DNA from: an uncultured virus (IMG/VR IMGVR_UViG_3300032676_000720)
Taxonomy: Duplodnaviria > Heunggongvirae > Uroviricota > Caudoviricetes
DNA: 64,000 nt
Reading direction: 5' to 3' (one strand)
IMG/VR virus record: IMGVR_UViG_3300032676_000720
Under the pieces are notes generated by a model. It did not search any database. It was not told where the DNA came from and saw only the letters and a program-made list of their open reading frames with translations. Shown here piece by piece: positions 20,601 through 57,711 of the stretch; the first letter of the stretch is position 1, and every line of letters starts with the position of its first letter. The translations under genes were made by a program, and so were the position numbers.

Positions 20601-20693
20601 TGGCGGAGAGCTAGGGATTCGAACCCCAGATGGACTGTTTAGATCCATGCCCGCTTAGTAGGCGGGTGCCTTCGACCGCTCGGCCAGCTCTCC
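20601..20693 (-). tRNA. tRNA-Ser with ACU anticodon
   Basis: Class II Ser body, G73; CCCGC-CT-ACT-AA-GCGGG. Confidence 0.9.
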
Positions 20694-25259: not shown

Positions 25260-25852
25260 TTAATATTAATGCTACTAAAAAACCTATTATTATATTTGCT
25301 AGTCCTAGAACTGGTAGTACTGCGCTAGGGCATCATTTGGAAAGTCTTTATCCTAATCTTAAATATTATAACGAACCTAATTTTTTTGTTGACGAAATGA
25401 AAAATTTTATGGATAGATTCGACAGTGGCAATGATGATTATATTTTAAAATTAATGGGCACCTCATTAAATGTCTATCCATCTCATGTTATTGCTAAAAT
25501 GTTTTCTAACGAAGTATTCAAAATTAAAATAACTCGTAAAGATATTATAGAACAAACAGCAAGTCATTATGTAGCAAATGAAAGAGATTTATGGGATTAT
25601 AAGGATGTTGATGATAACACTTGTAATAATTTAGCCTCACATAATATTGAAATTAATATAGATAGAGTTAATAAAAGTATTGAGTGTGTTGAATTTGATA
25701 ACATGATTATCAGTAAGATTTCTGCCGACTTAGAATTATATTACGAAGATTTTGAAGAATTTAAATCGCCAACTAAAAGAACTCCGTTACCGCTTAACTA
25801 CCCGTTGCTTCTTCATGTAATAAAAAAGTTATATAGTACCAGGGTCAGTTAA
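25256..25852 (+). CDS. Sulfotransferase-like protein
   Basis: SPRTGST PAPS loop, NEP, RKD...S, YYEDF. Confidence 0.7.
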   Translation: MININATKKPIIIFASPRTGSTALGHHLESLYPNLKYYNEPNFFVDEMKNFMDRFDSGNDDYILKLMGTSLNVYPSHVIAKMFSNEVFKIKITRKDIIEQTASHYVANERDLWDYKDVDDNTCNNLASHNIEINIDRVNKSIECVEFDNMIISKISADLELYYEDFEEFKSPTKRTPLPLNYPLLLHVIKKLYSTRVS

Positions 25853-26455
25853 ATCAAGTTGAGCAAAGCCCCACGCTCTTTCAGTACAACCGTTACAAAC
25901 ATTACATCTGCCTACTTGATATTTTTCATCGGCACAACTATGAGTAATATAAAATAATACTTGTTGATTAAGTTTACATATCATATCTATGATATGACTT
26001 TTATTAATTTTCTGAAATGGGGTTTTAAATCTAGCGGTTTCTCTGCTAGGTATTGGCTCCCAATTAACCATATGTTGTGGCAACTGTTCTATCACGCCAG
26101 CATATACTATATTAAACCCTAATGTAAGAGCTTCGTCTACTGCCGATTTTACTTGTTGTTCTTCTGGGAGAGTATTGTCGCCAACTATCTGTGGATCTTG
26201 GAATGGCAATTGAAATAGCGGATTGATGTGTCCAACAACTAAGCTACTACAATATCTAGATCCTTCTTTACGCATTATAGAGATAGGCAGTATTTCGTGT
26301 ACATTACCTCTTAGTTTGTTTTCTAATAATAGCAAGTAATATAAGATTGCGCTGTCTGTGCCGCCGCTAACTAATACTCCTATTTTAGATTTCTTTTTAG
26401 GAAGAGTAATTGATATAGTGCGTTGGTCGTCTTTTGGTCCGCAAGTAATATTCAT
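25829..26455 (-). CDS. QueC-like PP-loop protein
   Basis: SGGTDS; THSC...CNVCNGCTER Zn motif. Confidence 0.65.
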   Translation of the reverse strand: MNITCGPKDDQRTISITLPKKKSKIGVLVSGGTDSAILYYLLLLENKLRGNVHEILPISIMRKEGSRYCSSLVVGHINPLFQLPFQDPQIVGDNTLPEEQQVKSAVDEALTLGFNIVYAGVIEQLPQHMVNWEPIPSRETARFKTPFQKINKSHIIDMICKLNQQVLFYITHSCADEKYQVGRCNVCNGCTERAWGFAQLDLTDPGTI

Positions 26456-35237: not shown

Positions 35238-35332
35238 TGGTAGTAGATATAGGTTATGATCCTATCCGTTGCAGCCCATCTGACCACTCTCCCAGGTTTA
35301 TAAAACCCGGCCGCACACCAGTGCTATCTACC
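35238..35332 (-). tRNA. Atypical tRNA-like RNA, anticodon UAU, long variable region
   Basis: GGTAGAT/ATCTACT-ACCA; 4-nt D loop; TT-TAT-AA; T-loop ATCATAA. Confidence 0.65.
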
Positions 35333-35709: not shown

Positions 35710-35784
35710 TGGTGCCCCAGAATGGAATCGAACCACCGAACCCGGCTTACAAGACCGGACCTTTACCACTAAGGATACAAGGGC
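35710..35784 (-). tRNA. tRNA-Thr(UGU), second copy
   Basis: CT-TGT-AA. Confidence 0.9.
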
Positions 35785-36167
35785 TATTTTCTGTCTCTAC
35801 CATTTCCTTTATTTTTAGCCTTATATGTAGGCGTCTGACTATGGCAGTTTGGGCATATTGCCCTTAAATTTTCTTCTTTGTTATTTTTATAATTCCCGTC
35901 GATATGATCTAATTCTAGATATAGCGGAAGACCATTATGTTCTTCGATACCACAAATAAGACATTTATTATTTTGTTTTGCCCTTATATAACGATGTATA
36001 TACATACTAGTTTGATGTTTGCCTCGAAGGCCATCTTCTAAACCAGACTTCCACCGTTCTATGTAACTTTGATGCATTCCTTCTAAGTAATGCTTGCCAC
36101 AATAGATTCTTTTTTCTTTATGTGTAAATACCGTAGAACATATTTTACAGCTATATTTTTGTAACAT
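35784..36167 (-). CDS. HNH endonuclease, paralog of 18876-19292
   Basis: LELDHIDGNYKNN..NLRAICPNCHSQTPTYK. Confidence 0.85.
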   Translation of the reverse strand: MLQKYSCKICSTVFTHKEKRIYCGKHYLEGMHQSYIERWKSGLEDGLRGKHQTSMYIHRYIRAKQNNKCLICGIEEHNGLPLYLELDHIDGNYKNNKEENLRAICPNCHSQTPTYKAKNKGNGRDRK

Positions 36168-36183: not shown

Positions 36184-36260
36184 TGGCACTCTGTAGGGGT
36201 GACGATCCCCTCTTACCAACGTGAAAGGCTGGGGTCCTAACCAACATAGACGAACAGAGT
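36184..36260 (-). tRNA. tRNA-Glu(UUC)
   Basis: CT-TTC-AC; T-loop ATCGTCA. Confidence 0.85.
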
Positions 36261-36266
36261 ATAACT

Positions 36267-36344
36267 TGGCGTCCTCACCGGGTGTCGATCCCGGTCCTAC
36301 ACCTTGAAAGGGTGTTGATCTAGCCAATCGTAATCTATGAGGAC
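36267..36344 (-). tRNA. tRNA-Glu(UUC), second type
   Basis: CT-TTC-AA; T-loop ATCGACA. Confidence 0.85.
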
Positions 36345-36350
36345 ATAACT

Positions 36351-36425
36351 TGGCGACTCCAGGGAGTAACGATCTCCCTCTTCCTCTTAGACAGAGAGGT
36401 GTGCGTCCATGAACACTTTGGAGCC
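36351..36425 (-). tRNA. tRNA-Asp(GUC)
   Basis: CT-GTC-TA (U37); G73. Confidence 0.85.
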
Positions 36426-36430
36426 TTTGT

Positions 36431-36504
36431 TGGTTGCGGGCTAGGGTAACGCTCCCTATTCCATCCTGGCTTATGAGACCGGAGTGTGGCTATCACAACC
36501 CGCA
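36431..36504 (-). tRNA. tRNA-Met(CAU), atypical short D arm
   Basis: CT-CAT-AA; T-loop AGCGTTA. Confidence 0.7.
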
Positions 36505-36512
36505 ATAGTTGT

Positions 36513-36590
36513 TGGAGGAACGGGTCGGATTCGAACCGACGACTTTACAGTTTTGCAGACTGTTGCTTTGGGCCACTCAGCCACCGTTCC
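36513..36590 (-). tRNA. tRNA-Cys(GCA)
   Basis: CT-GCA-AA; U73. Confidence 0.9.
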
Positions 36591-36599
36591 GTTATTGTT

Positions 36600-36684
36600 T
36601 GGTGGGTGGTCATGGAGTCGAACCAAGTATGCCAGAGGCGTCTGATTTACAGTCAGGTGCGGTCGCCAGTGCCGCTCACCACCC
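36600..36684 (-). tRNA. tRNA-Tyr(GUA)
   Basis: Class II; CT-GTA-AA. Confidence 0.9.
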
Positions 36685-36709
36685 ATATAACGCTCTCTTT
36701 AGAAAGCGT

Positions 36710-36813
36710 GTAATAAAGCATACTAAGGCAATCATTTTTGCGCTGTGGAAAAGCGCCATGTCTTCGATCCGCGATGCCATTGACGGACCAGGTCTTTTAG
36801 TATGCTTTATTAC
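36710..36813 (-). ncRNA. Unknown structured RNA
   Basis: Perfect 17-bp terminal stem GTAATAAAGCATACTAA/TTAGTATGCTTTATTAC with inner hairpins. Confidence 0.6.
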
Positions 36814-36912
36814 GCTGTAGTTTTTTGCTCCACAAAAGGAGTTTCATCGTACAGGCCGCCCGTTTACTAGATGTTTTAAGTGCCTAGCGTGGACCTCGTT
36901 CCCACATAACAC

Positions 36913-36941
36913 ACTATACTACCTTACTGTTTATTTGTCAA
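36913..36941 (-). promoter_or_regulatory. sigma70-type promoter
   Basis: TTGACA-17-TATAGT. Confidence 0.65.
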
Positions 36942-37105
36942 TCTTCTATTTGAAAATAAACAGCTTCTTTACGCTGCGAAGCAAGTAATACCTTTGCTCG
37001 CTCGATCTTATTCTGAATCAACTTCTGCTTTTGCTCATCACTGAGTGAATAACTATAAGCCTGTTCCACAATACGATCATTTAATTTACTATAATCTATT
37101 GTCAT
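36938..37105 (-). CDS. 55-aa hypothetical protein (not in ORF track)
   Basis: SD AAGGA; MTIDYSKLNDRIVEQ...FQIED. Confidence 0.55.
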   Translation of the reverse strand: MTIDYSKLNDRIVEQAYSYSLSDEQKQKLIQNKIERAKVLLASQRKEAVYFQIED

Positions 37106-37119
37106 CTTTCTTTCCTTTT

Positions 37120-37155
37120 AAAAACAAAAAACCCGGAGTGTTTAGTTCCGGGTCC
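37120..37155 (-). terminator. Intrinsic terminator (candidate attenuator)
   Basis: GGACCCGGA-9 nt loop-TCCGGGTTT then TTTGTTTTT. Confidence 0.85.
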
Positions 37156-37182
37156 TTAAAGTTTGTGATATTAAAATATTAC

Positions 37183-37344
37183 TTAATCATCATATCCTTC
37201 TTGGACCCTACTATAATCTTTCCCTGCCTCAATCATATTAAAGCCACTATTATGAATTGTTGAGCGTAAAGAGGCTACCGGGCTCCAGCAGAGTGCTGAA
37301 CCTTGTGCTATTTGATACGTTACGGACAATCTTGTATTTTTCAT
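37183..37344 (-). CDS. Candidate 53-aa attenuator leader peptide (not in ORF track)
   Basis: MKNTRLSVTYQIAQGSALCWSPVASLRSTIHNSGFNMIEAGKDYSRVQEGYDD between consensus promoter and terminator. Confidence 0.6.
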   Translation of the reverse strand: MKNTRLSVTYQIAQGSALCWSPVASLRSTIHNSGFNMIEAGKDYSRVQEGYDD

Positions 37345-37353
37345 AATATGTTT

Positions 37354-37455
37354 ATTATAATGCTTAATTAATTCTTTGTCAACCTTCTTTTTTACTTCTC
37401 TGAACTTTTATTTACCTAATGTTGCAATTATACGCATATTTCCATTGAAAGTCAA
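37354..37455 (-). promoter_or_regulatory. Tandem sigma70-type promoters
   Basis: TTGACA-17-TATAAT (37354-37382) and TTGACT-17-TATAAT (37427-37455). Confidence 0.85.
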
Positions 37456-37470
37456 CCACTTTTGGTAAAA

Positions 37471-37725
37471 TTAGTTGCCCCATCTTAAAAGGAAGAGTGA
37501 TGAGTCGGTATCGCGAACAAAACTTACACCACATAAGTGTGGTTGATCCAATGTCCACATGGTCCAAGTCCAGTGTATGTAATGTCTACCTACTGTTGTT
37601 TCAAGCCAATATTCCATAGTATCCACTGCGGCGATCCAATCTAAATTTCCATTGGTTTCTATTATTGGCCAAGGCGCTACAGCTCTATAAGGAAGTTCAG
37701 GATGTTTGTCCCAAAGTGCTCGCAT
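37471..37725 (-). CDS. Small FxLxW-family protein
   Basis: WLETTVG...DSSLFLLRWG. Confidence 0.65.
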   Translation of the reverse strand: MRALWDKHPELPYRAVAPWPIIETNGNLDWIAAVDTMEYWLETTVGRHYIHWTWTMWTLDQPHLCGVSFVRDTDSSLFLLRWGN

Positions 37726-37763
37726 AGAAGTATTTACGAGCCCAGAACTTTCATTATATGCTA

Positions 37764-38378
37764 TTAATTGATTAGATCTTCTATAGATTTTTCGAACCCC
37801 ACTGTAATTACTAATCTCGGTCCTGGGCTCAAATGTACGGTATGCACATAGTCTGTGCGTACAAATGCGCTAGGAGTTAGTAAATTTGATTCTGCAGCCG
37901 TAGCAGGGCCTAAATATTCCATTTTTTCTGCTACTGTTGTTCCTGGCATAGTTAGCCCAGTAAAAGGTAATCCAGTTCGAGTACTTACTTGAGTAATCGA
38001 GTATAGTCTTTTATCAGTATGATGAAAATCGGTCCACCAATGCATAGGATCTTCTGGATTACCTTTTATTAATATATTAAATCTACTTTTTAAAATTTTA
38101 TGGTTTTCGTTATCCACATGGGGTCTTCCATAACCTTGATTTTCTAAATTAGCTAAATGTGCGGTTATGATTAGATTGGATGTATCACAATTATATTGCG
38201 ACAAATAATTTAATAATTCTTGTCCAGCACTTACTTCACGCCATTCGTGCTGTAACTTTCTTTGATCCCAATCTAAATTATGATAAAAATTTTCATTAAA
38301 ATGATTTTTATATCGATTAAGTATCCAATCTTTAGCTTCCTGCGAAAAATCAAAATCTGTTTTATGGAATAGTAACAT
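37764..38378 (-). CDS. 2OG-Fe(II)/cupin-like oxygenase, tandem duplicate
   Basis: RPHVD, FVRTDYVH, PRLVITV. Confidence 0.6.
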   Translation of the reverse strand: MLLFHKTDFDFSQEAKDWILNRYKNHFNENFYHNLDWDQRKLQHEWREVSAGQELLNYLSQYNCDTSNLIITAHLANLENQGYGRPHVDNENHKILKSRFNILIKGNPEDPMHWWTDFHHTDKRLYSITQVSTRTGLPFTGLTMPGTTVAEKMEYLGPATAAESNLLTPSAFVRTDYVHTVHLSPGPRLVITVGFEKSIEDLIN

Positions 38379-39009
38379 TGATTAACTCTTCTATACTTTT
38401 ATCGAAAGGCACAGTAATTACCAATCTTGGTCCAGGACTTAATTTTATAGTATGAATATAATCTGTGCGTACAAATGCGCTAGGAGTTAGTAAATTTGAT
38501 GCTGTATCTGTAGCAGGACCTAGATACTCCATTTTTTCTTCATTAGTGTGTCCTGGCATAGATAAACTACTAAATTCTTGATTAGTACGTGTATTTAAAA
38601 CATTACTATAGTACAAGCGTTTATCTGTATGGTGAAAGTTAGTCCACCAAAGCATAGGATCTTCTGGATTACCAAGCACTATTATATTAAATTTTGAAGT
38701 TACTGTTATTTTACCTTTAGCAGGTCCGTATAATTGTTCGGCGTCAACGTGCGGGCGACTATAATATGGTATTGTTAAATTTGCCAGATGAGCAGTTATG
38801 ATCAGATTAGATGTATCGCAATTATATTGAGAAAGGTAAGACAATAATTCTTCTCCAGCAATAGATGCTCGCCATTCATGTTGTAGTTGATTTTGAATCC
38901 AATCATAATTATGATAGAAATTTAATTTGAAGTGATCTTTATATCGGTTAAGTAACCAATCTTTAGCTTCTTGTGAGAAATCAAAATTTGTTTTATGATA
39001 TAACAGCAT
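38362..39009 (-). CDS. 2OG-Fe(II)/cupin-like oxygenase, tandem duplicate
   Basis: RPHVD, FVRTDYIH, PRLVITV. Confidence 0.6.
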   Translation of the reverse strand: MLLYHKTNFDFSQEAKDWLLNRYKDHFKLNFYHNYDWIQNQLQHEWRASIAGEELLSYLSQYNCDTSNLIITAHLANLTIPYYSRPHVDAEQLYGPAKGKITVTSKFNIIVLGNPEDPMLWWTNFHHTDKRLYYSNVLNTRTNQEFSSLSMPGHTNEEKMEYLGPATDTASNLLTPSAFVRTDYIHTIKLSPGPRLVITVPFDKSIEELINVTIP

Positions 39010-40019: not shown

Positions 40020-40138
40020 ACTAATAGTTCCTTTATGTTTATACTACTGAACAAATATTTATTGTTTTTTTGCGTTGGCCTGCAAAAATTGCTAGGTTTT
40101 GGCATATTTTTAAGTTTAATATACGCATATAATGAAGT

Positions 40139-40164
40139 CAAAAGAATAGGGGTCGAAGCCCCTA
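40139..40164 (-). terminator. Terminator after tmRNA
   Basis: ATAGGGG-CTTCGA-CCCCTAT-TCTTT. Confidence 0.7.
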
Positions 40165-40169
40165 TCTGT

Positions 40170-40503
40170 TATTTTCTGTTTCGACGGATAACTCCGCAAA
40201 GCAGTGATTAAACTGCTAATGTTTGGCGTTGTGCTGTACGAGCAGAGAAACGAATTCCCTTACCTGAAACAGTTACTTCGCCTTTAGATGCGTTTGCATT
40301 TAAGTTTTTCGCTTGATTTACAGTCATCGCCTACTGTGTTGCCTCTTTCATTATCTCACCATGTCGAAACCTTGTCATCCCCACTGAAACATACTACAGC
40401 TTTTGGCCTCGCTACCGATAACTCGGTTCGGTAATATGCTTCGGTGGAGATGCCGGGAATCGAACCCGGGTCCACAGCGCCTTCACTACGAAGGAATTAC
40501 AAC
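40170..40503 (-). ncRNA. ssrA: Circularly permuted (two-piece) tmRNA; outer ends approximate
   Basis: T-arm/acceptor GGACCCGGGTTCGATTCCCGGCATCTCCACC precedes GGGGATGA...TTCGAC (40382); G3:U70; tag frame 40297-40208. Confidence 0.9.
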
Positions 40504-40509
40504 AATTCT

Positions 40510-40713
40510 TTACAGCGGAAGAATATTTGATGCTTGCTTGCCTTTAGGGCCTGCCACTACATCGAATGTTACCGCTTGATTCTCTTTTAAACTCTTAAAA
40601 CCATTTGTGCTAATTGCGGAAAAATGTGCAAACAATTCCTCACCACCAGCATCGGGGGTAATAAATCCAAACCCTTTTGCATCATTAAACCACTTTACTT
40701 TACCTGTTGCCAT
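40510..40713 (-). CDS. cspA: Cold-shock protein
   Basis: [20 protein letters not shown]. Confidence 0.95.
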
Positions 40714-41480: not shown

Positions 41481-41768
41481 TCAAGGATATACTTTTTCGC
41501 CTTGCTTGAGTAACACTACGCTAAACTTATCAGTTTTGAATTGTGTGTTGAGTTTTTTGGCAAGATTGATTGCGTGACCTGGATTACTAAAACTTACTTT
41601 TTTATATTTAGGTCCAGGGTACTGAACTAATAAATTAGAAGTTTTAAGATTAACTGGTTTATTATCAAAGTAAACGGCCCATACTCCTTCCGAAGCAAGT
41701 ACTTGCTCGGTTTTGTATGTTTGCTTGTTTGTAAGCTCAGCTAAAATGGTTGGCTTGGGGCGACTCAC
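41481..41768 (-). CDS. Hypothetical protein
   Basis: MSRPKPT, YKKVSFSNPGHA. Confidence 0.7.
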   Translation of the reverse strand: MSRPKPTILAELTNKQTYKTEQVLASEGVWAVYFDNKPVNLKTSNLLVQYPGPKYKKVSFSNPGHAINLAKKLNTQFKTDKFSVVLLKQGEKVYP

Positions 41769-42367
41769 TTAGAATTCCTTTTGAATAGTTCTTTTCGTGC
41801 TTCAGATATTTTTTTACAAGTTTCTGGAGAACGCTTTTTACCTTTGTGGAGCAACGATATTTTTTGTTTGAATTCCTCACTTCGTGGAACCATTATTTGT
41901 TTAGCTCTAGCATCTTTTATTTTTTGTTTTGTTTCGTCACTATGCTTTTTTCCTAACATAGTAGGCGCTTGTTTTGCTCTAGCAGTTCGAATCTTTTCTT
42001 TACTAGACTCTGTATGTCTATAGTTTTTACTATTTTCTCTAATTTTTTGTCTAGTGGACTCTTTTACAGTACCGTAACTACCTCCCATTAATCCATCTTC
42101 GGGTTTAATGTTAGCCCATTCTGCTGACTCGACAATTTTGTTTTCTGTAGAAAATTTTAAAGCGTATTCGACTAATGTTTCTTTATTATCGAATAGCTGA
42201 CACCAAACGGTAGTAACATCTAGACCGTGTTTATTAAGATGTGCCCGCCAGTGTACGCCAGATCCTAAATATTTGTTAGGATCCCGTATAGTTTTTCCAA
42301 AGTATTTTAGACCGGTAGTATTATGTTGCTTAATGTACAACCAGGTAGGTTTAAACGGTTTCGACAT
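41765..42367 (-). CDS. GIY-YIG-like homing endonuclease with NUMOD3 repeats
   Basis: LYIKQH..TGLKYFGKT..YLGSG; HSDETKQKI repeats. Confidence 0.8.
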   Translation of the reverse strand: MSKPFKPTWLYIKQHNTTGLKYFGKTIRDPNKYLGSGVHWRAHLNKHGLDVTTVWCQLFDNKETLVEYALKFSTENKIVESAEWANIKPEDGLMGGSYGTVKESTRQKIRENSKNYRHTESSKEKIRTARAKQAPTMLGKKHSDETKQKIKDARAKQIMVPRSEEFKQKISLLHKGKKRSPETCKKISEARKELFKRNSK

Positions 42368-42618: not shown

Positions 42619-42989
42619 TGTTCTCTCTTTAAAAAGTTAGCTAGCTTAGGTGGTTCCCATCCCAATGGTTTAAGAATTTTACCATCTTCACGACGGCGTA
42701 CTTTGCCCAGTTGACGGTCAATTTTGGCAAAGTTAGTAGCCATTACCTCACGCCAAGCACCTTCACCATCTGCGCCCATCGAATTGATTGCTCCGATAGT
42801 AACGACAATAATATCGATTAAAGCATCAAGAGTTTCAACTTGATTTTTATTAGCAATAGCTACTTGTAGCTCGTCGTATTCTTCTGTAATCAATTTGGAG
42901 TAAAGTCTAAACTGATCATCATTCATGCCTGAGATAGTCTGCTCGCAAGCTGTCATAAATTTTGCTGAATCCTTAAACGGGTTTGTCAT
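42615..42989 (-). CDS. MazG-like nucleotide pyrophosphohydrolase
   Basis: EEYDE, DALID, REDGKILKP. Confidence 0.85.
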   Translation of the reverse strand: MTNPFKDSAKFMTACEQTISGMNDDQFRLYSKLITEEYDELQVAIANKNQVETLDALIDIIVVTIGAINSMGADGEGAWREVMATNFAKIDRQLGKVRRREDGKILKPLGWEPPKLANFLKREH

Positions 42990-43606
42990 ACTTTTTCCTT
43001 TTTCTTTAATTGTGCGTTGCGTCTTGCTTCGGACCAAGGCTTACCTTTATGCTGTGATCCATAAATCTTTTTTCTCTCTTCTTCTGTAAGAGAACTTCTA
43101 TGTTGTAATGCCTTTTCTTGCATCACTACTTTTGTATCTTCTGAATGTTCTTTATCTCTAAACGGATTATTTTCCTTCATCCATTCTCTGTGTTTTTCTT
43201 TTCTTCTCTTTGCTTCTTCTTTATCCTGTTGTATCTCTTCGTAAGTCTTGCCTTTGTTTTTACCTGGCTTACCTCTGCTGGCATTGCCTATTTTAGTTTT
43301 TGCTTCTTCGGTATGACTAAACGGACCACCATCGCCTGCTTCTGGTTTTAAGTTAGCCCACTCTGGACTATCTACTACCTGCCATAAGTCACTGTAGTAC
43401 AGGCCCCAGGCTCTTATTTCTTCATTATCTTTACACTCTTTTAATATTTCTGTATCAACATCATTGCCGTGTTTCTCGATATGAGCTGACCAACGCTTAC
43501 CAGAACCTTTGTAAGTGTACGGATCTTGATTAGTCTTACCTAAATATTTTAATCCGGTTTTACGATGAGTTTTAATGTACAAGTAAATCATATTGTACTT
43601 AGTCAT
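42986..43606 (-). CDS. GIY-YIG-like homing endonuclease
   Basis: LYIKTHRKTGLKYLGKT..YKGSG; WANLKPE. Confidence 0.8.
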   Translation of the reverse strand: MTKYNMIYLYIKTHRKTGLKYLGKTNQDPYTYKGSGKRWSAHIEKHGNDVDTEILKECKDNEEIRAWGLYYSDLWQVVDSPEWANLKPEAGDGGPFSHTEEAKTKIGNASRGKPGKNKGKTYEEIQQDKEEAKRRKEKHREWMKENNPFRDKEHSEDTKVVMQEKALQHRSSLTEEERKKIYGSQHKGKPWSEARRNAQLKKKEKV

Positions 43607-49294: not shown

Positions 49295-50149
49295 TCAAGT
49301 ACCCCAGTCGTTTTTCCAAAGAACCACTTGAAGTCTATCACTATAGCGTAAACCGTTATTCATTGCTAGTTCTGCTACTCGACGATTATTCAAAGTATAA
49401 ACACTTTCAACTCCACCAACTGGCATTAAGTAAATTGGGCCTTTAAACCCAGCCGCTTGATAAATTTGCGATACTGCTAGTGCTTCTTCGGCATCTTCTT
49501 CTGTAGAGATTACAAATTTTAAATAAGTGTATCCAACTTCTTGATATTCGCAAACTACTTCAGGCTTAATAGCATCTTCACGCAATTCACCAGAGCAACT
49601 TAATTTAGCACTAACACTAAATGTAACTTGTTTAGGCTTGCCAACTCCATCTAATGACCAGTTAATCAAAAACTCTTTAAACTCTGGACTTAGCTTTTGA
49701 GTGCCATTCGTTTCAAAAGTAATTTCTCGTAAATTGGCCATCTTAGGATTGTTCAGCAAGTCTGGATAAGCACGTTGCCAACCTAACAAAGGTTCTCCGC
49801 CTGTGATAACCAAGTGCTCAGTGCCCCACTGACCAAATGGCAGAATCTCCATAATGCGATTAGCAATAGCATCTGACTCCATTAAAGGACTTAAATCTTT
49901 AAAGCGCGGATCCCAACTAGCATAGCTATCACATCCTGTACTTACTAATGGCAAGTCTTCATATTTGGTAAACATATGAGCAACTTCTGCTATTTCTTCT
50001 ACTTCTGTGCTAAGTTGACCTTTGGGCATACCAAATCCAGCACAGCGGAAATTACAGCCGAAAGTTCTAAGGAATATACTGGGCACTCCCATATAGCGAC
50101 CTTCGCCTTGAATACTATAAAATAGTTCTGCTACTTTTAATTTACTCAC
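49295..50149 (-). CDS. queE: 7-carboxy-7-deazaguanine synthase (radical SAM)
   Basis: FYSIQGEG, GCNFRC...CDS, ITGGEP, ETNGT. Confidence 0.9.
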   Translation of the reverse strand: MSKLKVAELFYSIQGEGRYMGVPSIFLRTFGCNFRCAGFGMPKGQLSTEVEEIAEVAHMFTKYEDLPLVSTGCDSYASWDPRFKDLSPLMESDAIANRIMEILPFGQWGTEHLVITGGEPLLGWQRAYPDLLNNPKMANLREITFETNGTQKLSPEFKEFLINWSLDGVGKPKQVTFSVSAKLSCSGELREDAIKPEVVCEYQEVGYTYLKFVISTEEDAEEALAVSQIYQAAGFKGPIYLMPVGGVESVYTLNNRRVAELAMNNGLRYSDRLQVVLWKNDWGT

Positions 50150-56910: not shown

Positions 56911-57711
56911 TCATCTCGGGGCAAAGTCCTGTTGTAGTTTGATATTGTCCATAAACTCTTTCTTAGTGCCAGCATCTTCATTAAATGCTCCACGCAATAC
57001 AGTAGTCTGTGTCAGACTAGAGTGTGCCATAATACCTCTATTTTCGCAACAACCGTGAACAGCCTGTATATATACACCTACGTCTTTACTATCAGTTGCT
57101 TTCATTATTTCTTTAGCGATGTCATTACATAGTTCCTCTTGTAAAGTCCCACGGCGAGCACACCATTGAGCAATCCTTGTATACTTAGAAAGACCAATGA
57201 GCTTGTTGGCAGCGATGATCCCGATATAGGCAACCCCACTAACTGGCTGATGATGATGACTACACATACTACGCAATTCACTGCGAACAACCAACATACC
57301 TTCATATCTATCCTCTGAATTATTTGGAAACGCTGTACAATCTGGAGCCGGCTCATATCGCCCTGCCATAATTTCGTTAAAATACATCTTAGCTAATCTT
57401 TTAGCTGTGCCTTTACTGTTGGGATCATTTTCGCGATCAATAAGCAATGCGTCTAGTACACCTTCAAATGCTATAGTGGCATTAGCAATTAATTCATCTC
57501 TGTGCCCGACTACATACTCACTAATGTTATCCCCAGCCCAGAAGCGTTTCTTATCGCGTTTCATATTAAAACGGATAGCATCGGCTAAGGTTGCTTCTTC
57601 GTACCCTTTGTCGCTCATCATCATTGCGGCATCTTCGTAGCCAGGATGATACGGTGCTTCTTCTACTAATTTCTTAGCGTTTTCTCTATCTTCTGTTGTA
57701 AATGATGTCAT
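56911..57711 (-). CDS. folE: GTP cyclohydrolase I
   Basis: SMCSHH, IGLSK, LQE, HGC..RG. Confidence 0.95.
   Translation of the reverse strand: MTSFTTEDRENAKKLVEEAPYHPGYEDAAMMMSDKGYEEATLADAIRFNMKRDKKRFWAGDNISEYVVGHRDELIANATIAFEGVLDALLIDRENDPNSKGTAKRLAKMYFNEIMAGRYEPAPDCTAFPNNSEDRYEGMLVVRSELRSMCSHHHQPVSGVAYIGIIAANKLIGLSKYTRIAQWCARRGTLQEELCNDIAKEIMKATDSKDVGVYIQAVHGCCENRGIMAHSSLTQTTVLRGAFNEDAGTKKEFMDNIKLQQDFAPR

What the first reader, a model, noticed from the sequence alone, without database searches (positions are those of the whole stretch)
37120..37455. Candidate attenuator that senses the host tRNA pool and gates the phage tRNA array
Seen: tandem consensus sigma70 promoters, then an unannotated 53-codon ORF (37344-37183), a strong terminator (37155-37120), a 55-aa ORF, and the main tRNA array on the same strand. 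The leader encodes all 20 amino acids with 36 different codons by my count, including all four Gly, five Ser, AGA/AGG/CGC, ATA and TTA/TTG/CTC. Its 3' end carries GGGTCC (37208-37203), exactly complementary to GGACCC (37155-37150) in the terminator's 5' arm, so the two folds exclude each other. Known: trp/his-type attenuators use runs of one amino acid, and anticodon-nuclease defences (PrrC, RloC, PARIS) deplete host tRNAs that phage tRNAs can replace. Inference: stalling at any depleted codon favours the antiterminator and switches on the replacement tRNAs. Caveats: a further promoter (36913-36941) lies downstream of the terminator, and a 53-codon ORF is fairly codon-diverse by chance.
Basis: partly seen in the sequence, partly recalled or inferred. 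Interest (0 to 1): 0.88.

Follow-up and report, generated by a model that had tools for sequence, protein, structure and literature searches.

The report
All-amino-acid leader switch before phage tRNAs
A tiny translated gene that holds about one of every amino acid ends inside an RNA hairpin that competes with a transcription stop signal, here and in some 60 diverged lake-phage relatives, so slow ribosomes probably let transcription run on into an unknown structured RNA and the phage's tRNA genes.

Summary

- **Close relatives.** Sixteen distinct leader peptides (52-55 aa) from close relatives all keep the frame. They also keep the terminator, a 24-pair hairpin that locks up the terminator's 5' arm, and all 20 amino acids.
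- **Wider set found independently.** I searched for the conserved structured RNA that lies downstream. Of 71 distinct phage loci, 61 have the same layout: a strong sigma70 promoter, a 34-64 codon ORF whose stop lies 23-32 nt before an intrinsic terminator, then the RNA and tRNAs.
- **Amino-acid coverage.** Of 59 distinct, very diverged peptides (mean 47 aa), 42 contain all 20 amino acids. About 3 are expected by chance. Trp and Cys are mostly single-copy.
- **Competing fold.** In 59 of 59 loci the ORF's 3' end pairs with the terminator's 5' arm. This fold is far more stable than in shuffled controls.

Best reading: a ribosome-dependent attenuator whose leader samples nearly every amino acid.

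Caveats:
- In this window a further promoter (P3) bypasses the gate.
- Asp and Glu often lie too close to the hairpin to be sensed.
- The anticodon-nuclease link is untested.
- Earlier notes of this scan describe the same kind of element elsewhere.
- Four literature searches found no published description.

The parts
37427..37455 (-). Promoter P1 (TTGACT-17-TATAAT, 11 of 12)
   Evidence: Kept in the close relatives.
37354..37382 (-). Promoter P2 (TTGACA-17-TATAAT, 12 of 12). Its -10 element ends 9 nt before the ATG, so its transcript is in effect leaderless.
   Evidence: The -10 to ATG distance is 7-9 nt in the 17 versions of this clade. It is 10 nt or less in 12 of 57 family loci that have a promoter.
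37183..37344 (-). Leader ORF: 53 codons plus TAA, with all 20 amino acids in 36 codon kinds.
   Evidence: The frame is kept despite length differences of 52-55 codons. pN/pS is 0.28-0.76.
37143..37213 (-). Antiterminator hairpin of 24 pairs. Its 5' half is the last 10 codons and the stop codon. Its 3' half includes GGACCC of the terminator's 5' arm.
   Evidence: 92% of cells are paired against 32-53% when the partner is slid. The pair at 37204/37154 changes C-G / U-A / U-G.
37120..37155 (-). Intrinsic terminator (stem ACCCGGA/TCCGGGT, 9-nt loop, T-run).
   Evidence: 100% of cells are paired, and two pairs covary.
36938..37105 (-). 55-aa ORF with the ribosome-binding site AAGGAAAG. It belongs to a conserved small helical protein family that sits between the terminator and the structured RNA in 27 of 61 family loci.
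36913..36941 (-). Promoter P3 (TTGACA-17-TATAGT, 11 of 12), which bypasses the terminator. Its -10 element overlaps the 5' strand of the structured RNA.
   Evidence: It is absent in the 52-codon relatives. A promoter-like site at this position is seen in 14 of 61 family loci.
36685..36915 (-). Structured RNA of unknown class at the head of the tRNA array.
   Evidence: Covariation. No Rfam family. Its loop motif retrieved the wider family.
36600..36684 (-). tRNA-Tyr, the first of 29 same-strand tRNA genes.

Best explanation
This is a ribosome-dependent (leader-peptide) transcription attenuator at the head of a phage RNA-gene operon.

How it would work:
1. Host RNA polymerase starts at near-consensus sigma70 promoters.
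2. The short leader ORF is translated. From P2 it is translated as a leaderless mRNA.
3. The last ~10 codons and the stop codon form the 5' half of a long hairpin. The 3' half of that hairpin contains the 5' arm of an intrinsic terminator.
4. If a ribosome keeps pace and reaches the stop codon, it holds the hairpin open. The terminator then forms and transcription ends.
5. If the ribosome lags anywhere upstream, the more stable hairpin forms first. The polymerase then reads through into the small-protein gene (in this lineage), the structured RNA and the tRNA genes.

Because the leader carries about one codon for every amino acid, slow decoding of almost any of them should raise read-through. 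That makes expression of the phage's tRNA set demand-driven.

Shown by sequence comparison: the ORF, its amino-acid completeness, the two competing folds and the gene order. Inferred: that the ORF is translated, that stalling switches the fold, and what the signal is in nature (tRNA depletion, codon-usage mismatch, amino-acid starvation or ribosome shortage).
For: **Close clade**
- 17 distinct DNA versions and 16 distinct peptides of 52-55 aa, 16 of 16 with all 20 amino acids. The single His sits at three different alignment columns.
- pN/pS is 0.28-0.76 in 10 of 10 pairs.
- I kept the branch and column of each substitution and redrew only the new residue. All relatives then stay complete in 0.03-0.45% of runs.
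- Hairpin: 24 pairs, 92.0% of 311 cells paired against 32-53% for slid partners; 2 pairs covary.
- Terminator: 7 pairs, 100% paired; 2 pairs covary.
- Before the terminator's 3' arm exists, the minimum-energy fold is the hairpin in 13 of 13 versions. It folds at -21.6 to -28.6 kcal/mol against -12.3 to -15.2 for the terminator.
- In 3 of 3 relatives scanned, no promoter-like site lies between the terminator and tRNA-Cys.

**Family ascertained through the downstream RNA, not through the ORF**
- 61 of 71 distinct loci have a terminator within 300 nt upstream. Each also has one 34-64 codon ORF whose stop lies 23-32 nt before the terminator stem.
- 42 of 59 distinct peptides hold all 20 amino acids, 8 hold 19 and 6 hold 18.
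- Simulation gives a mean of 2.85 complete peptides (maximum 10 in 4000 runs) with the leaders' own composition. It gives 7.76 (maximum 17) with a perfectly even composition.
- Taking one peptide per 60%-identity cluster, 22 of 32 are complete against 1.5 expected.
- Among control ORFs of 36-64 codons in the same loci, 8 of 197 are complete.
- Trp is single-copy in 90% of leaders, Cys in 81% and His in 73%.
- In 59 of 59 loci the fold made before the 3' arm pairs at least 5 nt of the terminator's 5' arm with the last 45 nt of the ORF. Mean energy is -26.7 against -14.5 kcal/mol for shuffles, 53 of 59 loci have z below -2, and the fold is more stable than the terminator in 57 of 59.
- All 20 kinds are reached by codon 40.0 of 49.6 on average; with residue order shuffled the figure is 43.9.
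- 57 of 61 loci have a sigma70-like promoter upstream of the ORF.
- 47 of 61 have no such promoter between the terminator and the RNA.
- 50 of 71 have same-strand tRNAs within 700 nt downstream, and 5 of 71 have them upstream.

**Weak support.** An RNA library holds one 151-nt contig identical to 37133-37283, which covers the ORF's 3' half, the hairpin and most of the terminator.
Against: - There is no expression, Ribo-seq, Term-seq or reporter data. The single RNA-library contig could be DNA carry-over.
- In this window P3 (11 of 12) lies downstream of the terminator, so the array is not wholly gated here. 14 of 61 family loci have such a site.
- If replacement residues are drawn only from those seen in the same column, completeness within the close clade is not significant (P 0.08-0.33). 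The weight therefore rests on the wider family.
- Assume a ribosome covers about 5 codons ahead of its A site. Then only 34.3 codons on average are clear of the hairpin strand. That segment holds 18.0 kinds on average, 19 in 25 leaders and 20 in only 3 of 59 leaders. Glu (23 leaders) and Asp (16) often occur only after it. In the close variant of this window (L102; leader peptide identical), Asp is the kind left out.
- 17 of 59 leaders are incomplete.
- Many invariant residues in the close clade are not single-copy kinds, so the peptide or the RNA carries further constraints.
- No upstream partner for the hairpin's 5' strand, the trp-style 1:2 pairing, was seen.
- The leader's codons are not enriched for those the phage's own tRNAs read: 44 of 53 against 40.5 +/- 3.2 in the phage's genes.
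- Phage-specific promoters that my sigma70 scan cannot see could drive the RNA genes.
Confidence: 0.72

Rival explanations
1. It is an ordinary small early gene with its own promoters and terminator. The long hairpin would be an mRNA-stabilising or RNase III processing structure, and the downstream RNA genes would be fed by leaky read-through or by promoters not recognised here.
For: - Peptide conservation in the close clade goes beyond single-copy residues, and pN/pS is below 1.
- The phage region holds many strong promoters.
- The window has P3 downstream of the terminator.
- The long imperfect hairpin is of the size expected for an RNase III site. This is recalled knowledge and was not tested.
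Against: - This reading does not explain why 42 of 59 widely diverged peptides are amino-acid complete against about 3 expected.
- It does not explain why the ORF end pairs with the terminator's 5' arm in 59 of 59 loci even where the terminator sequence is unrelated.
- It does not explain the fixed 23-32 nt distance from stop codon to stem.
- No protein family matches the leader.
Confidence: 0.1
2. The attenuator is real but reports only overall translation capacity: ribosome availability, transcription-translation coupling or host shut-off. On this reading amino-acid completeness merely gives an 'average' test message, and no individual tRNA shortage is sensed.
For: - The architecture responds to any delay of the ribosome.
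- There are no codon runs, so a single hungry codon gives only a weak delay.
- Asp and Glu are often outside the segment that can signal.
- The whiB7 uORF attenuator responds to many kinds of translational stress (abstract of PMC10274678).
Against: - An 'average' message would not need every rare amino acid exactly once. Trp is single-copy in 90% of leaders and Cys in 81%.
- Completeness exceeds even a perfectly even composition: 42 observed against 7.8 expected.
- Synonymous codon variety is at or above that of uniform usage in 44 of 61 leaders.
Confidence: 0.13
3. The P2 transcript is a non-coding small RNA, and the ORF is a by-product of RNA-level conservation.
For: - There is no Shine-Dalgarno sequence before the ATG.
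- Flanking non-coding DNA is almost as conserved as the ORF in the close clade: 42% of ORF columns vary against 49-56% of flanking columns.
- The only RNA-library contig covers the structured 3' part.
Against: - The frame stays open in all 17 DNA versions, with ORF lengths of 52 and 53 codons. Four further database peptides are 54 and 55 aa long.
- Third codon positions vary most: 28 variable columns against 20 and 18, each of 52.
- Amino-acid completeness is defined only in this reading frame and is far beyond chance.
- Only 14 of 48 long ORFs of the window have a Shine-Dalgarno-like word, so its absence means little.
Confidence: 0.04

Closest known systems
Leader-peptide transcription attenuators of amino-acid operons (trpL, hisL, leuL, thrL, ilvL, pheL of enterobacteria)
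   Same: A short translated ORF, an intrinsic terminator before the regulated genes, and an alternative hairpin that takes the terminator's 5' arm and is kept open by a ribosome that reaches the end of the ORF. Slow decoding gives read-through. The mechanism as stated is recalled textbook knowledge. The paper listings were seen as titles and abstracts only.
   Different: - Those leaders carry runs of one or a few cognate codons and control biosynthesis of that amino acid. Here there are no runs; each amino acid appears about once.
- The leader is long (34-64 codons).
- No 1:2 pairing was found, so an untranslated transcript should read through.
- The regulated genes are a structured RNA and tRNA genes of a phage.
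- There is no Rfam leader-family match: Thr_leader scores 16.2 bits against a threshold of 55.
whiB7 (wblC) uORF attenuator of mycobacteria
   Same: Stalling in a uORF leads to antitermination. It is activated by knock-down of many amino-acid biosynthesis, tRNA and tRNA-synthetase genes, and its responsiveness is set by the uORF's coding sequence (abstract of PMC10274678). It therefore also acts as a broad sensor of translation stress.
   Different: That uORF is specifically enriched for alanine and controls a transcription factor of a bacterium (same abstract). The phage leaders are built for completeness rather than enrichment, and they control RNA genes.
Ribosome-mediated attenuators that sense translation-inhibiting antibiotics (for example the bmrCD leader of Bacillus subtilis)
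   Same: A leader ORF with competing terminator and antiterminator folds, where any ribosome stall raises read-through. Seen only as a title and abstract in the listing (PMC4191407).
   Different: The signal there is a drug acting on the ribosome, and the output is an efflux or resistance gene. No amino-acid-complete leader is described.
T-box riboswitches
   Same: A transcription terminator/antiterminator switch that reports tRNA charging (recalled).
   Different: T-boxes bind one uncharged tRNA directly, without translation. No T-box match was found here, and the switch overlaps a translated ORF.

Membership tests
Ribosome-dependent leader-peptide transcription attenuator | A short ORF in the 5' leader that is translated | tested here: inconclusive
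   The ORF is conserved in frame, pN/pS is 0.28-0.76, and a frame-specific property is far beyond chance. No direct evidence of translation is available.
Ribosome-dependent leader-peptide transcription attenuator | An intrinsic terminator between the ORF and the regulated genes | tested here: met
   It is present in 61 of 71 family loci.
Ribosome-dependent leader-peptide transcription attenuator | An alternative fold that excludes the terminator and whose 5' strand lies where a terminating ribosome sits | tested here: met
   It is found in 59 of 59 family loci, with a mean z of -4.06 against shuffles. The stop codon lies in the upper stem.
Ribosome-dependent leader-peptide transcription attenuator | Regulatory codons: a run or excess of codons for the amino acid concerned | tested here: not met
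   There is no run. Each amino acid occurs about once to a few times. This is the respect in which the element is a variant.
Ribosome-dependent leader-peptide transcription attenuator | An upstream pairing (1:2) that restores termination when the leader is not translated | tested here: not met
   Folds of the P2 and P1 transcripts keep the antiterminator. No competitor is apparent. Only this window was examined.
Ribosome-dependent leader-peptide transcription attenuator | Read-through rises when charged tRNA is short | not testable with these tools
   This needs reporters, Term-seq or coupled in-vitro transcription-translation.
Rfam leader and riboswitch families (Thr_leader, T-box and others) | A score at or above the family's gathering threshold | tested here: not met
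   The only match is noise-level: Thr_leader at 16.2 bits against 55, E-value 3.7.

The most novel reading that the evidence does not exclude
Many uncultured lake phages carry a purpose-built test message with one codon for each amino acid. It lets the phage read the host's whole decoding capacity in real time. It switches on a replacement tRNA set, together with a dedicated structured RNA and small protein of unknown role, whenever any tRNA species is missing. That would include cleavage of tRNAs by host anticodon nucleases, which would make the element an inducible counter-defence circuit.
Probability: 0.3. Interest if true: 0.95.

Novelty: new variant of a known kind. Interest (0 to 1): 0.85.

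Why it matters
How phages regulate their tRNA genes is largely unknown. tRNA genes in general are thought to be governed by promoter strength and growth-rate control, not by attenuation.

- A leader selected to contain every amino acid would be a new design principle for attenuators: completeness instead of codon runs.
- It would make phage tRNA supply a feedback-controlled, demand-driven function. That bears directly on whether phage tRNAs serve codon-usage matching or escape from tRNA-cleaving defences.
- The parts are host-type promoters, a plain terminator and a short ORF, so the idea can be tested in a laboratory strain or in a cell-free system.
- It also marks two conserved unknowns as members of the same regulated unit: a widespread phage structured RNA and a 50-60 aa helical protein.

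Tried and rejected
- **Cultured phages.** There was no DNA or protein match for the region, for the neighbouring 204-aa ORF or for three versions of the structured RNA. No culturable model was found at that sensitivity.
- **Protein and RNA families.** PHROGs and Pfam gave nothing for the leader or the 55-aa ORF. Rfam gave nothing beyond tRNAs and tmRNA.
- **PDB profile search with the 55-aa family.** It hit TAL-effector repeat proteins, but no single stretch passed. These are summed short LTPEQ-like matches in repeats, so I rejected them as an artefact.
- **First tree simulation.** It started from a parsimony root with only 19 kinds and is biased. I replaced it with runs that start from observed sequences and added a deliberately conservative null.
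- **Codon match to the phage's own tRNAs.** Not significant.
- **Missing Shine-Dalgarno sequence.** Not informative, because only 14 of 48 long ORFs have one.
- **RNA run X24.** It covers no other part of 36200-37800. Absence of cover in contigs proves nothing.
- **Pattern scan of bacterial genomes.** Nearly all matches are chance. By the automatic filter 1 of 80 fetched loci carries the conserved flanks. A second one was found by eye among 14 of the others printed.
- **Earlier scan notes.** Look-ups by place and by sequence found none for this genome.
- **Not done.** I did not run a fold search on the 55-aa model; a two-helix hairpin would match too much.
Full report
**What is in the window.**
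- All features lie on the - strand.
- Two near-consensus sigma70 promoters are present: P1 at 37455-37427 (11 of 12) and P2 at 37382-37354 (12 of 12).
- They precede an ATG ORF at 37344-37183.
- A hairpin follows, ACCCGGA / 9-nt loop / TCCGGGT, with a T-run ending at 37120. The scan missed it only because it allows loops of at most 8 nt.
- After it come a 55-aa ORF (37105-36938) with a good ribosome-binding site and a third promoter, P3, at 36941-36913 (11 of 12).
- About 230 nt without an ORF follow, and then 29 tRNA genes begin at 36684.
GGGTCC is at 37208-37203 and GGACCC at 37155-37150.
- The window is a piece of an uncultured phage. The nearest held record is 133 kb, rated 39% complete. 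No cultured phage matches.

**Chance expectations for the single sequence.**
- Against 53-codon windows of this phage's own long ORFs, 36 codon kinds is high (29.9 +/- 2.6; at least 36 in 1.2%). All 20 amino acids occur in 5.9% of those windows.
- Against open frames of the same base composition, 36 kinds is ordinary (33.9 +/- 2.2; at least 36 in 23.5%). All 20 occur in 7.5%.
- Alone, the ORF is therefore unremarkable. The test lies in relatives.

**The fold.**
- The minimum-energy fold of the P2 transcript contains a long imperfect hairpin (37213-37143). In it GGGUCC pairs with GGACCC, and the stop codon lies in the upper stem.
- The hairpin persists in the longer P1 transcript.
- The hairpin and the terminator share the terminator's 5' arm, so they exclude each other.

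**Close relatives.**
- Peptide-pattern scans found 24 loci in viral and metagenome contigs that carry the whole ORF. Five further weak partial hits (L043-L047) were dropped.
- With the window these make 17 distinct DNA versions. Four further peptides came from the protein collection.
- All keep P1, P2, the ATG 7-9 nt after the -10 element of P2, the frame, the hairpin and the terminator.
- The 7-9 nt spacing means the P2 transcript is in effect a leaderless mRNA.
- Lengths are 52-55 codons, so all length differences are in frame.
- Variable columns number 20, 18 and 28 of 52 at codon positions 1, 2 and 3. pN/pS is 0.28-0.76 in 10 of 10 pairs. This fits translation under moderate constraint.

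**Covariation in the close clade.**
- Over 13 distinct rows the 24-pair hairpin is 92.0% paired, against 32-53% when the partner is slid.
- Two of its pairs change on both sides. The GGGUCC/GGACCC pair at 37204/37154 is U-A in 7 rows, C-G in 3 and U-G in 3. The C/U change is a synonymous third position.
- The shuffle controls are only modest: 16 of 500 shuffles reach the paired percentage and 73 of 500 reach the number of covarying pairs.
- The terminator is 100% paired, with two covarying pairs.
- Before the terminator's 3' arm exists, the hairpin is the best fold in 13 of 13 versions (-21.6 to -28.6 kcal/mol). The terminator alone is -12.3 to -15.2.
- With the 3' arm present, 10 of 13 still prefer the hairpin.

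**Amino-acid completeness in the close clade.**
- All 16 distinct peptides hold all 20 amino acids. Codon kinds run from 34 to 40.
- The single His sits at alignment column 31, 10 or 6 in different subclades.
- I kept every inferred substitution on its branch and column and redrew only the new residue. All relatives then stay complete in 0.03-0.45% of runs.
- With the very conservative rule that only residues seen in that column may be drawn, the figure is 8-33%.
- The close clade alone is therefore suggestive, not decisive.

**What lies downstream.**
- The 52-codon relatives lack the 55-aa ORF and P3. Their terminator is followed within about 15 nt by the conserved ORF-free stretch and then tRNA-Cys.
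- No promoter-like site lies in between in the 3 of 3 relatives scanned.
- That stretch is a structured RNA with covarying helices. It has no Rfam family.

**An independent, wider sample.**
- A pattern taken from the structured RNA (its 13-nt loop plus GGGCGG) matched at least 119 stretches of viral contigs.
- Of the 70 distinct segments printed, 69 show the conserved flanks. L058 does not.
- Of 71 distinct loci, 50 have same-strand tRNA genes within 700 nt downstream and 5 have them upstream.
- 61 of 71 have a terminator within 300 nt upstream together with a 34-64 codon ATG ORF (in 58 of the 61 the only candidate) whose stop lies 23-32 nt before the stem.
- The other 10 include two truncated loci and the chance match.
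- This sample was not chosen by any property of the ORF.

**The decisive counts.**
- The 61 loci give 59 distinct peptides, mean 47.2 aa. They are so diverged that single linkage at 60% identity gives 32 clusters.
- 42 of 59 contain all 20 amino acids. By locus the distribution is 20 kinds in 44, 19 in 8, 18 in 6, 17 in 1 and 16 in 2.
- Simulated peptides of the same lengths give a mean of 2.85 complete ones (maximum 10 in 4000 runs) with the leaders' own pooled composition. With a perfectly even composition they give 7.76 (maximum 17).
- Taking the first member of each 60% cluster, 22 of 32 are complete against 1.5 expected. At 50% identity, 10 of 16 are complete against 0.8 expected.
- Windows of 44-52 aa from real proteins of this phage are complete in 2.1-5.3% of cases. 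Other ORFs of 36-64 codons in the same loci are complete in 8 of 197.
- Trp is single-copy in 90% of leaders, Cys in 81% and His in 73%.
- Codon variety equals or slightly exceeds what uniform synonymous usage would give (35.5 against 34.2 kinds; 44 of 61 loci above expectation). I treat this only as suggestive.

**The switch across the family.**
- In 59 of 59 distinct loci, the best fold of the RNA made before the terminator's 3' arm pairs at least 5 nt of the 5' arm with the last 45 nt of the ORF.
- Mean energy is -26.7 against -14.5 kcal/mol for shuffles (mean z -4.06). 53 of 59 loci are below z = -2. The fold is more stable than the terminator in 57 of 59.
- This holds where the terminator sequence is unrelated. 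Loci with an AAGCCGCT-type stem have a matching GGCTTCCTT in the ORF end. That amounts to covariation at the scale of whole helices.
- 57 of 61 loci have a sigma70-like promoter within 160 nt upstream of the ATG. In 12 of those the -10 element ends 10 nt or less from the ATG. Most others have a 30-120 nt 5' leader with an AAAGAGAAA-type site.

**Two layouts.**
- In 29 loci the terminator abuts the structured RNA.
- In 32 loci, this window's lineage included, there is a spacer. In 27 of these the terminator lies 150 nt or more before the RNA. In 26 of the 27 the spacer encodes a homologue of the 55-aa ORF.
- A promoter-like site between the terminator and the RNA is present in 14 of 61 loci and absent in 47.
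- P3 is therefore a feature of a minority. In this window it means the array is only partly gated.
- P3's -10 element overlaps the RNA's 5' strand (AGUGUG, 36915-36910). That strand can pair with CACGCU after the long hairpin. I infer that only read-through transcripts would carry the complete RNA.

**Mechanism and its limits.**
- *Inferred logic.* A ribosome that reaches the stop codon keeps the hairpin's 5' half single-stranded, so the terminator forms. A delayed ribosome lets the hairpin form, and the polymerase reads on. An untranslated transcript should read through, since no trp-style 1:2 pairing was seen.
- *Placement of the amino acids.* All 20 kinds are reached on average by codon 40.0 of 49.6, earlier than with shuffled order (43.9). 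The strand that pairs with the arm starts about 10 codons before the stop.
- *Steric limit.* If about 5 codons ahead of the A site are covered by the ribosome, the segment free to signal is 34.3 codons. It holds 18.0 kinds, against 15.6 for random peptides of that length. It holds 19 kinds in 25 leaders and 20 in 3. Glu and Asp are most often left out. In the window's close variant L102 (same leader peptide), Asp is the kind left out. 'Pan-amino-acid' may therefore mean 18-19 in practice.
- *Own tRNAs.* The leader is not enriched for codons read by the phage's own tRNAs.
- *Unknown signal.* tRNA loss, codon mismatch, starvation and ribosome shortage cannot be separated here. The anticodon-nuclease idea is untested.

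**Expression data.**
- Of 24 runs listed, 23 are DNA-type and one is a metatranscriptome.
- That run holds a single 151-nt contig identical to 37133-37283.
- This is compatible with an abundant terminated leader RNA, but it is not proof of transcription.

**Comparison with what is known.**
- The element works like the classical leader-peptide attenuators, but it fails their defining codon-run feature.
- It resembles the broad-sensing whiB7 uORF attenuator (abstract of PMC10274678) and the antibiotic-sensing leaders (listing only).
- Four full-text searches returned no description of attenuation of tRNA genes or of an amino-acid-complete leader. They combined leader peptide/attenuation/phage tRNA, tRNA array/terminator/anticodon nuclease, all 20 amino acids/leader/attenuator, and phage tRNA/attenuation/jumbo phage/uORF. 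I saw only listings and abstracts.
- After my own counts I found that earlier notes of this scan report the same kind of element in other genomes. One of them doubts the all-20 reading. They are AI notes, not independent support.

**Verdict.** The element is a new variant of a known regulatory kind, and I rate its interest as high.

Noticed in passing
window 36685-36915 (- strand); L048-L127: A structured RNA of unknown class sits at the head of phage tRNA arrays.

- Its parts are a hairpin with the 7-nt loop AACGMGR, a hairpin with the 13-nt loop GCACUWWAAACAU, the junction AAAYGGGCGG, an arm GGAUGR-hairpin-GAAAAAU, a long variable hairpin, and 5'/3' ends that can pair.
- Helices covary, and no Rfam family matches.
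- It matched at least 119 viral-contig stretches.
- By the automatic filter only 1 of 80 fetched bacterial-genome hits is real. A second was seen by eye among 14 others printed.
- It is absent from cultured phages by blastn.
   Followed up: partly
window 36938-37105 (- strand): The 55-aa ORF belongs to a conserved family (26 distinct members aligned) with the motif L(T/S)xEQxxKLIxxKxxRA. It always lies between the terminator and the structured RNA. The predicted structure is a two-helix hairpin (pLDDT 80). No Pfam or PHROG family matches. It could be a partner of the RNA.
   Followed up: partly
window 40117-40545 (- strand): A phage-encoded permuted (two-piece) tmRNA of betaproteobacterial type with an unusually long 29-aa tag. 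In relative L042 its terminator directly precedes P1 of the leader module.
   Followed up: no
window 35238-35332 and 20601-20693 (- strand): tRNA-Ile(tat) is 95 nt long. A tRNA-Ser is called with the odd anticodon ACT.
   Followed up: no
window 35784-36167 (- strand): An HNH endonuclease ORF is inserted within the tRNA array. Two homing-endonuclease-like ORFs lie at 41765-42367 and 42986-43606.
   Followed up: no
window 37764-39009 (- strand): Tandem paralogous ORFs of 204 and 215 aa lie just upstream of the module. Neither matches any family.
   Followed up: no
leader promoter regions, e.g. window about 37415-37405; L055, L078, L087: The DNA word GACTAAATAA recurs near or inside the leader promoters of many diverged loci. 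In some it lies in the promoter spacer, in others just before the ATG. It may be a protein-binding site or an RNA element.
   Followed up: no
window 25829-26455, 49295-50149, 56911-57711 (- strand): QueC-like, QueE-like and GTP-cyclohydrolase-like genes are present. They suggest 7-deazaguanine (queuosine-type) modification capacity in the same phage region.
   Followed up: no
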